A stretch of DNA of 63,679 bases, filler included, from Folioceros fuciformis (lineage: Eukaryota), in the NCBI GenBank assembly GCA_049999805.1. It is 7 parts of 7 records of this genome, joined end to end, with 100 filler letters (N's around TTAATTAATTAA, not from the genome) between each part and the next. Parts side by side here need not be neighbours in the genome. Positions count along the whole stretch, not along the records: positions 8,877 to 16,522 come from JBNGIO010003504.1; 6 more parts are not named here. One strand, given 5' to 3'. Below the pieces are notes generated by a model. It was not told the DNA's origin. It searched no databases and saw nothing but the letters and a program-made list of their open reading frames with translations. The translations under genes were made by a program, and so were the position numbers. Each line of letters starts with the position of its first letter. The first letter of the stretch is position 1. This document shows, in pieces, positions 9,006 to 10,614 of the stretch.

Positions 9006-10614
9006 TTATTGGTTGCTAGGTCGGAGGTTCAGCAGGTCCGAGATGGAGCGGACCGAGTAGCCACGTCGTCGCAATCCAGGTAGCAGTTTCCGCAAGACCT
9101 GCAACCGAAGAGGGTGTTATTTTACGATATCTGCGAGAGCAAACTCTGACGAAGCATGAGGCAGAAAGAGAGTGTTGCTACCTGTGCCGTTTGGTGCTGC
9201 TGGGGTCTTCGGTCGTGCAACACAATCACTGCTCCAGGATGAACCTGTGGGGAGACAAAGAGGGGCAGAGGGCGACATGAATGGATTGAATTCACACTTT
9301 ACCAAGAGGAGAATTGGGCCTGTGGCATTCGGTGGTTTCTCTCACCCTCCAAAGTAGATACTGGGCAAGGAGATTTCCCTGAGAGGTGAAGACGTTGTCG
9401 AAGGGGAACAGCGATCCGAGAGCCGTGCGGTATCCGTGAGACTTGGCCCGTTCCACCATAAGATTCGTGAAGAAGCCATACCCCTGCATCCAACCCAGCA
9501 CGTTAAGTGCTAGTGAATGAAAACTCGGTGGGCAACCACCAGCACGCGAGGAGCAAATATAGTGGAGCATCCTTCCGACATACAGGACGAAACCACTTGA
9601 TGGGATTGCCGTCGGAGTCATGGAAGTAGAATTTGTTGAGACGGTTATCCACGGCTACCAGCTGCTGCTCGAAATCTGTCTGCCATGGCCCCATCAGTGA
9701 GCACGAATCTCACGAAACTCCACAAGAGACGCAGAGACAGGCCAAAAAAGTGGGGCAGCAATAAGCTGTGAAAATACCATCGAAAGACGCCATGAAGGCT
9801 CGTCAAACATGGTGTGATTGCCGACCTCGTGGCCTGAATACATGGAAATAACAAGCCCTTCATCACACCAGTGTCAACAGCGATGAGACTTCCCTCTCTC
9901 TTCGCCACCATTACACAGGCCATCAAAGAGCCAACAAACAAGACAGCAATTCACTCGTTCGTTCACATGAGTTCAGAGCAGATAGATGCCTTCTTTGTGT
10001 ATTCGCTCCACCAGAGCAGGACAATGGTCCATATTGTGCCCTATGATGAAAAACGTTGCGTTGCTCTGATTCTCCCTCAAGATGTCCAGGAGCTGGCCAT
10101 CGCAACAGCATCAAAACATGAGCAGAAACCACAAAAACAATACAAATCCCGTCCAATCTATCAAATTCCACAAACTCCTGCCCAAAAAAACCTGCCTCAG
10201 GCGTGATGTCTTCATGAGGACCATCATCGATCGTGAGAGCCACAACCAAATCTGCATGCAAGTCCATTCAAATAAGACGGCATCATCCCCTGCCTCTCCG
10301 CCACCCGCCCTTCACAAACCGGCAGTTTCTGCTCTTACACCGAACCTGCCGTACCAGTGGTTGGCTTGAGGAACAGAAGATCCTGCCGCTGCCTCTGCAT
10401 CCACCTCACCAACCAGGTCGGCTGGAAGGCCAACCTGCGATTGCAAACAACACATGGAATAAAAACCCGTACTTCACCTTGCCACTCCATTCCACAACCT
10501 CAAGCATTGCAGTCCATCCACTCCAACTCACGAGAATCCAATGGCAGCGACGCCGATCAAGATGGTCCCCGCCGCAGTCACCGCCGCCTTGGTGCAAGCG
10601 CCAATCAGGCCCAT
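9006..10614 (-). CDS. NodB-like carbohydrate esterase family 4 (polysaccharide/chitooligosaccharide deacetylase) with an N-terminal hydrophobic anchor; 9 exons
   Basis: Manual splicing gives MGLIGACTKAAVTAAGTILIGVAAIGFSLAFQPTWLVRWMQRQRQDLLFLKPTTDLVVALTIDDGPHEDITPE-LLDILRENQSNATFFIIG...GHEVGNHTMFDEPSW...KWFRPGYGFF...GSLFPFD...VHPGAVIVLHDRR...LRKLLPGLRRRGYSVRSISDLL...NQ*. CE4 motifs 1 (TxDD), 2 (NHT), 3 (FRP) and 5 (LHD) occur in order. Confidence 0.85.

What the first reader, a model, noticed from the sequence alone, without database searches (positions are those of the whole stretch)
9006..10614. Intron-rich NodB/CE4 polysaccharide deacetylase in a plant genome (possible horizontal acquisition)
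The gene is split into nine short exons, so the ORF track misses it. The motif set (ALTIDDGP, ATFFIIG, GNHTMFD with Asp in place of the second His, FRPGxGFF, IVLHDR) and the N-terminal anchor resemble a fungal/bacterial NodB-like CE4 subfamily. I do not know this family from flowering plants. Spliceosomal introns and an F-box and TMN gene on the same contig argue that it is integrated and not contamination. Inference: it may deacetylate chitooligosaccharides or peptidoglycan fragments and so modulate fungal or cyanobacterial symbiosis or immunity signals.
Basis: partly seen in the sequence, partly recalled or inferred. Interest (0 to 1): 0.72.

Follow-up and report, generated by a model that had tools for sequence, protein, structure and literature searches.

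The report
Candidate chloroplast peptidoglycan deacetylase
This is a real, spliced plant gene of an old sugar-deacetylase family shared from green algae to conifers and not found in flowering plants, not a recent gene transfer; a missed first exon adds a predicted chloroplast address, so it would likely trim acetyl groups from the bacteria-like wall (peptidoglycan) that such plants keep around their chloroplasts.

Summary
The gene is real. All eight proposed joints appear in a 99%-identical RNA-like run.

Recent horizontal transfer is refuted. Orthologues occur in zygnematophytes, Klebsormidium, mosses, liverworts, lycophytes, ferns and gymnosperms. The protein nests in land plants (100/97), and grouping it with cyanobacteria is rejected. 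Relatives also occur in fungi, amoebae and bacteria. No angiosperm copy was listed.

The His-to-Asp change at the metal site is subfamily-wide; the catalytic residues are intact.

Best guess (0.4): a membrane-anchored, plastid-imported de-N-acetylase acting on plastid peptidoglycan or its lipid precursor. The genome holds MurA, MurF, MraY, DDL and a class A PBP. The gene's range resembles that of plastid peptidoglycan, and such a modifier was predicted in print. Location, activity and substrate are untested, and relatives without peptidoglycan argue for a glycolipid rival.

The parts
10713..11073 (-). Missed first coding exon (ATG 11073; transcript reaches at least 11134); 106 codons, crosses the N gap 10721-10820; predicted organelle (likely plastid) transit peptide followed by an Arg-Glu repeat
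   Evidence: X1 record 3 bridges the gap; frame open and kept in two relatives that are 60 nt shorter; targeting inferred from composition only
10642..10712 (-). Intron, 71 nt, GT-AG
   Evidence: (loose ends at 10642/10643)
10532..10641 (-).
   Evidence: best 19-residue hydropathy 1.99
10355..10434 (-). Exon 3: conserved Q-P-x-W and a basic helix after the anchor; a minor in-frame donor at 10345 adds 9 nt
   Evidence: helix 88-97 in the orthologue model
10196..10251 (-). Exon 4: motif 1 TIDD (10234-10223), with the catalytic base Asp and metal Asp
10093..10195 (-). GC-AG intron
   Evidence: joint 10092-10196, ends CT..GC, in all four runs
9990..10092 (-). Exon 5: ATFF strand; passes the PF01522 cut-off alone
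9834..9989 (-). GC-AG intron (156 nt)
   Evidence: joint 9831-9988 in all four runs, placed at GC..AG
9778..9833 (-). Exon 6: motif 2 H-T-M-F-D (9816-9802), with Asp at the place of the second metal His
9584..9679 (-). Exon 7: ends in F-R-P of motif 3 (Arg of the charge relay)
9346..9483 (-). Exon 8: rest of motif 3 (G-Y-G) and motif 4 Asp (F-P-F-D, 9408-9397)
9182..9244 (-). Exon 9: motif 5 L-H-D (9220-9212), with the catalytic acid His
9006..9098 (-). Exon 10: last helix and strand, stop codon ending at 9006

Best explanation
This is a spliced, single-copy gene of an old CE4 (NodB-fold) subfamily inherited through green plants; its product is predicted to be imported into the chloroplast, likely sits in the envelope by one membrane anchor, and would remove N-acetyl groups from plastid peptidoglycan or its lipid-linked precursor. 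Shown: the gene structure, expression in an RNA-like run, the fold (on an orthologue), the motif residues, descent within land plants, and peptidoglycan-synthesis genes in the same genome. Inferred from CE4 chemistry: a divalent metal held by Asp64, His114 and Asp118 (numbering from Met 10614) binds the acetamido carbonyl; Asp63, tethered by Arg157, activates water; His214, tethered by Asp187, protonates the leaving amine, releasing acetate. Inferred and untested: plastid import of the long form; a possible short form from the second Met; the substrate; and the purpose, which would be to control wall turnover during plastid division or to mask the plastid wall from the plant's own GlcNAc/LysM sensors.
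For: (1) An in-frame 115-residue extension lies before the anchor. Its ATG is the first in the transcript and in strong context, and the frame is kept in relatives despite a 60-nt length change. (2) 13 of 24 streptophyte records have extensions of 35 aa or more, against 1 of 14 scored in the other-eukaryote group. The 60 residues before the anchor average 5% D+E, 18% S+T and 12% R, against 12%, 9% and 6% in the domain. (3) The range found (Chlorokybus, Klebsormidium, Closterium, Mesotaenium, Marchantia, Riccia, Sphagnum, Ceratodon, Selaginella, Diphasiastrum, Adiantum, Ceratopteris, Ginkgo, Taxus, Cryptomeria, prasinophytes; no angiosperm) resembles the published range of the full Mur/class A PBP set (PMC12681378 passages; PMC10784329). 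(4) G000 has intron-split MurA, MraY, MurF, DDL and a PBP with a transglycosylase domain and SxxK and KTG motifs. (5) The nearest solved folds are peptidoglycan GlcNAc deacetylases (Bc1960: Z 28.6, rmsd 1.9, 204 aligned), though xylan esterases are nearly tied. (6) PMC9434261, section 18, predicts non-cyanobacterial enzymes that modify the plastid GlcNAc-MurNAc backbone or stem, and names none.
Against: No activity, substrate or location was tested, and no targeting predictor was available. Simple composition did not cleanly separate organelle from cytosolic N-termini in this genome. 11 of 24 streptophyte records lack the extension, including Adiantum, Selaginella, Klebsormidium and Chlorokybus; the models may be cut short or the extension may be younger. 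10 of the 13 extended records keep a Met just before the anchor, so a short non-plastid form may be the main one, and GC-rich leaders can mimic transit peptides. The frame conservation in relatives is probably one event (1 in 3 by chance). Subfamily members occur in fungi, dictyostelids, Acrasis and a foraminifer, which make no peptidoglycan (established knowledge). Welwitschia has the gene, while its relative Gnetum keeps only MurE and MurG parts. In Chloroflexota the gene sits beside a hydrolase-acyl-CoA ligase fusion, which points to lipids. K/R after the anchor (11 of 14 land-plant anchors) would put the domain in the stroma, away from the mature wall. Motifs 2, 3 and 4 depart from consensus.
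Confidence: 0.4

Rival explanations
1. A housekeeping membrane de-N-acylase of an endogenous glycolipid or N-acyl lipid, working like PIG-L or ArnD. It starts at the second Met or uses both starts, is anchored in the ER or an organelle membrane with the domain facing cytosol or stroma, and keeps the ancestral job it has in fungi, amoebae and bacteria. One candidate product in plants is GlcN-GIPC.
For: The anchor plus domain layout is shared across the subfamily (66 of 80 bacterial loci, 6 of 7 other eukaryotes). 34 of 80 bacterial loci carry a fused alpha/beta-hydrolase + long-chain acyl-CoA ligase next door, upstream in most and downstream in three. The second Met is kept (10 of 13). A GIPC deacetylation step is predicted but unassigned, and moss GIPCs carry HexNAc (PMC9113257 passages). 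The PIG-L and ArnD analogy is recalled; ArnD appears at Z 16.2.
Against: 32 of the 34 neighbour cases are Chloroflexota, so they are not independent; 0 of 16 cyanobacterial and 0 of 10 Gemmatimonadota loci have it. HexN-GIPCs are reported in rice, tobacco and Arabidopsis, where no copy was found. It does not explain the long extensions.
Confidence: 0.3
2. A pseudoenzyme or a non-carbohydrate amide/ester hydrolase: the Asp-His-Asp site and the changed motifs 3 and 4 bind no catalytic metal, or serve a small non-sugar substrate.
For: The second His is absent in all 126 aligned members, motif 3 Tyr is replaced by Gly, and the motif 4 aromatic is lost. Inactive CE4 proteins lack the motif 2 His residues (PMC5855634 section 5.1). 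Pseudoenzymes BA3943 and BA0150 rank among the top folds.
Against: An acidic residue is kept at that place in 39 of 39 green, 77 of 79 bacterial and 6 of 8 other eukaryotic sequences. The base Asp, first His, Arg, motif 4 Asp and acid His are nearly invariant, as expected of a working site.
Confidence: 0.15
3. One reading: a cell-surface enzyme that deacetylates fungal chitin oligomers or cyanobacterial wall fragments to tune symbiosis or immunity.
For: The fold and family match chitin and peptidoglycan deacetylases, and an uncleaved anchor could display the domain outside.
Against: There is a predicted transit peptide. K/R lie after the anchor. An N-H-T sequon at the first metal His is present in 12 of 15 land-plant records and would be glycosylated in the secretory path (inference). 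The gene is kept in non-symbiotic algae and Marchantia polymorpha and not found in angiosperms, where these symbioses are common (symbiosis status recalled). It falls far below the NodB cut-off.
Confidence: 0.1
4. A recent horizontal acquisition from a fungus or cyanobacterium, or contamination.
For: Bacterial relatives are 40-46% identical, and the gene starts a contig beside N gaps.
Against: Plant orthologues are 47-63% identical. The protein nests in land plants at 100/97, and the AU tests reject a cyanobacterial sister. It is spliced, and the RNA links it across the gap to the F-box/TMN region. Breaks in Ginkgo, Taxus and Selaginella gene models fall at this gene's intron positions.
Confidence: 0.02

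Closest known systems
Bacillus cereus Bc1960 and Streptococcus pneumoniae PgdA (CE4 peptidoglycan GlcNAc de-N-acetylases)
   Same: NodB barrel (Z 28.6, rmsd 1.9, 204 aligned to 4l1g); motif 1 DD, first His, Arg, motif 4 Asp and motif 5 His in register
   Different: Under 30% identity; Asp for the second His; R-P-G-x-G for R-x-P-Y; F-P-x-D for D-x-x-D-W; far below the PgdA family cut-offs; nuclear, intron-split, with a predicted transit peptide
Rhizobial NodB chitooligosaccharide deacetylase (TIGR04243)
   Same: Same domain family, PF01522
   Different: Orthologues score 91-119 bits against a cut-off of 240; membrane anchor; no nod gene context
Fungal chitin deacetylases (ClCDA 2iw0, AnCDA 2y8u, AngCDA 7bly)
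   Same: Fold (Z 23.8-24.8)
   Different: These are secreted His-His-Asp enzymes. The true fungal relatives here are uncharacterised anchored proteins (Ascochyta, Trapelia, Basidiobolus).
Uncharacterised anchored CE4 subfamily of bacteria, fungi and protists (probably CDD cd10958, CE4_NodB_like_2; name recalled, from no call)
   Same: TIDD, H-x-x-x-D, FRPGxG, (F/Y)P-x-D, LHD and the N-terminal anchor
   Different: The land-plant and zygnematophyte branch often adds a long S/R-rich N-terminal extension; no member with tested function was found in print
Plastid peptidoglycan system of non-flowering plants (MurA-G, MraY, DDL, MurJ, class A PBP)
   Same: Similar range and a similar transit-peptide-plus-anchor layout to the PBP of this genome
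   Different: No deacetylase is named in the passages and texts read (0 hits for 'deacetyl' in PMC9434261 and PMC12681378)

Membership tests
CE4 / NodB homology domain (PF01522) | Profile match over the curated cut-off | tested here: met
   Window exon 30.2 and 32.8 bits vs 23.1; orthologues 87-110 bits
CE4 / NodB homology domain (PF01522) | Distorted beta/alpha barrel fold | tested here: met
   Tested on the orthologue P0010 (58% identical, same H-T-M-F-D), not on the window protein: mean pLDDT 86.8, Z 28.6 to 4l1g
CE4 / NodB homology domain (PF01522) | Motif 1 TFDD (base Asp + metal Asp) | tested here: met
   TIDD; both Asp kept in 79 of 79 bacterial and 37-38 of 39 green sequences
CE4 / NodB homology domain (PF01522) | Motif 2 H(S/T)xxH, giving the Asp-His-His metal triad | tested here: not met
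   H-T-M-F-D; no His at +4 in 126 aligned members; His at +3 in only 6 of 39 green, so not a register shift. This lowers 'canonical CE4 deacetylase', not 'works like one'.
CE4 / NodB homology domain (PF01522) | Motifs 3-5: Arg, Asp and acid His of the two charge relays | tested here: met
   R157, D187 and H214 nearly invariant; the flanking Tyr (motif 3) and Trp/Tyr (motif 4) are not kept
CE4 / NodB homology domain (PF01522) | Metal-dependent de-N- or de-O-acetylase activity | not testable with these tools
   Needs an assay
NodB (TIGR04243), PgdA, PdaA, PdaB equivalogs | Score over the family cut-off | tested here: not met
   Three plant orthologues and one bacterial relative fall below all 8 matched cut-offs (best 128.8 vs 237.4)
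CDD cd10958 CE4_NodB_like_2 (recalled) | Match to the CDD model | not testable with these tools
   CDD is not held; no paper names it
Plastid peptidoglycan pathway | Host encodes the Mur genes and a class A PBP | tested here: met
   5 of 11 components searched, 5 found: MurA, MurF, MraY, DDL and PBP. PF00905 gave no passing match, but SxxK and KTG motifs were read in the PBP locus.
Plastid peptidoglycan pathway | N-terminal plastid transit peptide | tested here: inconclusive
   In-frame extension with fitting composition in 13 of 24 records; controls did not separate cleanly; the Atlas gave no usable hit
Plastid peptidoglycan pathway | Presence and absence track the full Mur/PBP set | tested here: inconclusive
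   Broad match; possible mismatches are Welwitschia and some chlorophytes; no genome-by-genome profile was run
Recent horizontally acquired gene | Nested among donors and absent from related plants | tested here: not met

The most novel reading that the evidence does not exclude
An old anchored CE4 enzyme with an Asp-His-Asp metal site was re-addressed to the plastid in the ancestors of land plants and is the unnamed modifier of plastid peptidoglycan. It would deacetylate the organelle's wall or lipid II, hiding it from the plant's own immune sensors or governing its turnover at division, and it was lost in angiosperms along with the class A PBP.
Probability: 0.3. Interest if true: 0.78.

Novelty: new variant of a known kind. 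Interest (0 to 1): 0.48.

Why it matters
How non-flowering plants tolerate a bacterial-type wall around their own chloroplasts is an open question. PMC9434261 proposes that the wall must be modified by enzymes not yet identified. A single-copy, conserved gene with known models in Marchantia (MARPO_0016s0107) and Ceratodon (KC19_VG115500) makes that testable with one GFP fusion, one knockout and one assay. Even if the substrate is a lipid, this is an untested CE4 subfamily with a changed metal site that spans bacteria, fungi, amoebae and plants.

Tried and rejected
Origin. Recent transfer and contamination were rejected. A cyanobacterial, endosymbiotic origin of the green clade was rejected under LG+G4 (p 0.006). 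A single eukaryote clade was neither shown nor rejected (p 0.44). Window+fungi was not tested by AU.

Metal site. A register shift in motif 2 (His at +3) was rejected. The geometry of the site could not be measured, because model coordinates are not returned.

Targeting. The Atlas search with the Sphagnum extension gave no usable hit. The composition control on 9 N-termini of this genome was not discriminating; the sucrose synthase segment ran into an intron and is invalid. A search of the window for the RNA's loose end found 0 matches, because those bases lie in the N gap. PF00905 gave no passing match in G000.

Literature. Ten searches found no paper on a plant member. Supplements of three genome papers had 0 hits (one PDF was unreadable, and one search covered one small file). 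Two Aspergillus CDA papers could not be tied to this subfamily. Most subscription papers, including large plant HGT surveys that I recall, were not searchable.

Other. No listed run is on record as RNA; RNA status rests on the intron joints. Earlier scan findings: none. No complex prediction was sent.

Full report
OBSERVATION. The minus strand from 10614 to 9006 holds nine exons that join into an open 255-codon frame with TIDDGP, ATFF, GHEVGNHTMFD, FRPGYGFF, FPFD and IVLHD. Contigs of run X1 are 99+% alike (7 of 7 laid) and show all eight joints. Runs of three other organisms (mostly 85-99% alike) each show seven of the same joints; the eighth (9583-9484) appears with a small offset in two of them and is retained in the third. 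Two introns are GC-AG. G000 (87 Mb, 7240 contigs) has one PF01522 match and one locus for an orthologue query. None of the 19 listed runs is on record as RNA; the joints are the evidence that these contigs are transcripts.

THE MISSED EXON. In one search three runs had loose ends at 10642-10643. Laying a wider stretch showed X1 record 3 running from 10355 through the N gap to 11134. The sequence gives a GT donor at 10712 and an AG acceptor before 10641. The first ATG of the transcript is at 11073 in a gccATGG context, and 318 nt separate it from 10641, so it is in frame. The other two frames have stops. Two relatives have 215 nt where the window has 275, which keeps the frame, though this is probably one event. 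The protein is about 370 aa: about 115 residues of extension, a 19-residue anchor, a basic helix and the domain. About 19 codons in the gap were only partly seen.

HOST. The neighbours are plant genes (DYW-type PPR, F-box, TMN/EMP70, amino-acid permease, GRAS). The protein is 56-63% identical to most fern, lycophyte, moss, liverwort and gymnosperm orthologues alike and groups with none of them. With the small genome and short introns, a hornwort is likely; this is inference.

RELATIVES AND DESCENT. Three protein searches, one exhaustive profile search and three name look-ups found orthologues in Adiantum, Ceratopteris, Diphasiastrum, Selaginella, Sphagnum, Ceratodon, Riccia, Marchantia, Taxus, Cryptomeria, Ginkgo, Welwitschia, Closterium, Mesotaenium, Klebsormidium and Chlorokybus, and in Pyramimonas, Cymbomonas and Tetraselmis. 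No angiosperm name is among the best 120 of 698 or the best 120 of 412, and the unnamed plant-like rows group with ferns, mosses or zygnematophytes. Recall is incomplete: one search missed 5 of its own 21 query rows. Physcomitrium, Chara, Mesostigma and Picea were not seen by name either. Loss in angiosperms is therefore likely, not proven. The subfamily also holds fungi (Ascochyta, Trapelia, Basidiobolus), dictyostelids, Acrasis, Nonionella, a Chlamydomonas, and many bacteria (80 GTDB loci kept of 591: 38 Chloroflexota, 16 cyanobacteria, 10 Gemmatimonadota).

TREE. I chose 67 of 424 domain sequences for IQ-TREE, LG+G4 without the mixture model; the bootstrap had not fully settled. The window protein lies in land plants (100/97), then with zygnematophytes (99/90), then with Klebsormidium (99/94). 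The green clade is 91/85 and the base is unresolved; the Chlamydomonas row falls outside the green clade. AU tests: window+cyanobacteria p 2e-16; green+cyanobacteria p 0.006; all eukaryote-group rows as one clade p 0.44. The last two groups were named after the tree was seen. Breaks in the Ginkgo, Taxus, Selaginella and Marchantia paleacea models fall at this gene's intron positions, an indirect sign of shared gene structure. Recent transfer is refuted; the ultimate origin is open.

ACTIVE SITE. The motif definitions come from PMC5855634 (passages and section 5.1) and PMC10967932 (passages). The base Asp, metal Asp, first His, Arg, motif 4 Asp and acid His are nearly invariant over 39 green, 8 other eukaryotic and 79 bacterial sequences. 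The second metal His is Asp in 38, 6 and 71 of them (Glu in 1, 0 and 6) and never His. The change is thus a subfamily mark, not a feature of this plant. A model of the Diphasiastrum orthologue (mean pLDDT 86.8) matches CE4 barrels, best Bc1960. Orthologues fall below all named NodB, PgdA and Pda cut-offs. An Asp-His-Asp metal site is my inference; the review notes that inactive CE4 proteins lack these His residues, so a pseudoenzyme remains possible.

WHERE IT WORKS. 13 of 24 streptophyte records extend 35-251 residues before the anchor, low in D+E and high in S, T and R; 1 of 14 scored rows of the other-eukaryote group does. The window's first 55 residues (7% D+E, 13% S+T, 11% R) resemble those of this genome's PBP (7, 20, 9), but cytosolic controls overlap, so the test is weak. 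Against this: 11 records lack the extension, and 10 of 13 keep a Met before the anchor, which allows a short form. K/R lie mostly after the anchor in eukaryotes (11 of 14 land plants, 9 of 12 algae, 5 of 6 others; 29 vs 29 in bacteria), and an N-H-T sequon overlaps the metal His in 12 of 15 land plants. Both argue, by inference, against an extracellular enzyme.

WHAT IT ACTS ON. The range resembles that of plastid peptidoglycan synthesis, which is complete in mosses, liverworts, lycophytes, Klebsormidium, some prasinophytes and conifers and lacks the bifunctional PBP in angiosperms (PMC12681378 passages; PMC10784329 parts 1-2 of 3, which reports PBP orthologues in two angiosperms). G000 encodes MurA, MurF, MraY, DDL and a PBP with both domains (5 of 5 searched). 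PMC9434261 section 18 proposes that the mature plastid wall is modified on its stem or GlcNAc-MurNAc backbone by enzymes of non-cyanobacterial descent to escape the plant's defences. This gene fits that description, and I rate it 0.4. The main rival (0.3) is a glycolipid or N-acyl-lipid deacylase. Members live in organisms without peptidoglycan, and 34 of 80 bacterial loci neighbour a hydrolase-acyl-CoA ligase fusion, though 32 of the 34 are Chloroflexota. A GIPC deacetylase is predicted but unassigned (PMC9113257 passages), yet angiosperms make those lipids without a found copy of this gene. The two readings meet if the plastid substrate is lipid II on the stromal face. Welwitschia, whose relative Gnetum lacks most Mur genes, is a possible mismatch.

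NOVELTY. Public databases already label these proteins as NodB-domain or polysaccharide deacetylase, so the family is known as an annotation. Ten literature searches and three supplement searches found no study of a plant member and no link to plastids. Subscription papers and unread supplements may hold one. PMC11125919 and PMC7016196 were read as passages only and did not bear on the subfamily. The names cd10958 and PIG-L are recalled.

VERDICT. The gene is real and longer than reported. The transfer story is wrong, the enzyme chemistry is likely and the substrate is open. Interest 0.48; if the plastid-wall role holds, about 0.78.

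Noticed in passing
window 11134-11178: The CE4 transcript (minus) and the F-box transcript (plus, with two 5' leader introns near 11456-11667 and 11826-11930) start head to head about 45 bases apart or less, which suggests a shared two-way promoter.
   Followed up: no
window 12082-16500: The F-box and TMN transcripts lie in one X1 contig, which suggests overlapping 3' ends. A 'goes back 69' joint at 12074-12006 hints at a collapsed repeat in the assembly.
   Followed up: no
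window 10195-10093 and 9989-9834: Two of the gene's nine introns are GC-AG, with the same joints in related organisms; the second has a weak donor.
   Followed up: partly
window 9583-9484 and 10345: The intron inside motif 3 is retained in contigs of several relatives' runs (X2, X3, X11, X16), and X1 shows a minor in-frame donor at 10345.
   Followed up: no
window 5609-8200 (-): Intronless PPR protein with E and DYW domains; its K-K-P-A motif and non-DYW ending look like the 'KP' type tied to U-to-C editing (type recalled, not tested).
   Followed up: no
L004:2334-4850, L065:2221-4839 and 32 other loci: Unnamed fusion of an alpha/beta hydrolase and a long-chain acyl-CoA ligase beside the CE4 gene in 32 of 38 Chloroflexota loci and two deltaproteobacterial ones; a possible lipid-salvage operon.
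   Followed up: partly
G000:C6396:143000-150500 (L103), C1274, C2750, C1420, C6298: Intron-split class A PBP, MurA, MraY, MurF and a two-domain DDL: this genome seems to keep plastid peptidoglycan synthesis.
   Followed up: partly
P0122 (Ceratodon KC19_VG115500): The locus tag suggests the moss orthologue lies on the V sex chromosome (reading of the tag recalled).
   Followed up: no
window 8777-8876, 16523-16622, 37808-37907, 46548-46647, 60180-60279, 61926-62025: Six scaffold joins are padded as N44, 12 bases, N44, so order across them is only scaffold-level; the plain 100-N gap at 10721-10820 is really 57 bases.
   Followed up: partly
window 22935-25131, 28658-29449, 38338-40343, 41053-45425, 52629-54398: Other genes seen: an amino-acid permease and a GRAS factor; a TPR/ferredoxin-like protein, an ABC1-type kinase and a sucrose synthase (named from recall of the frames).
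   Followed up: no
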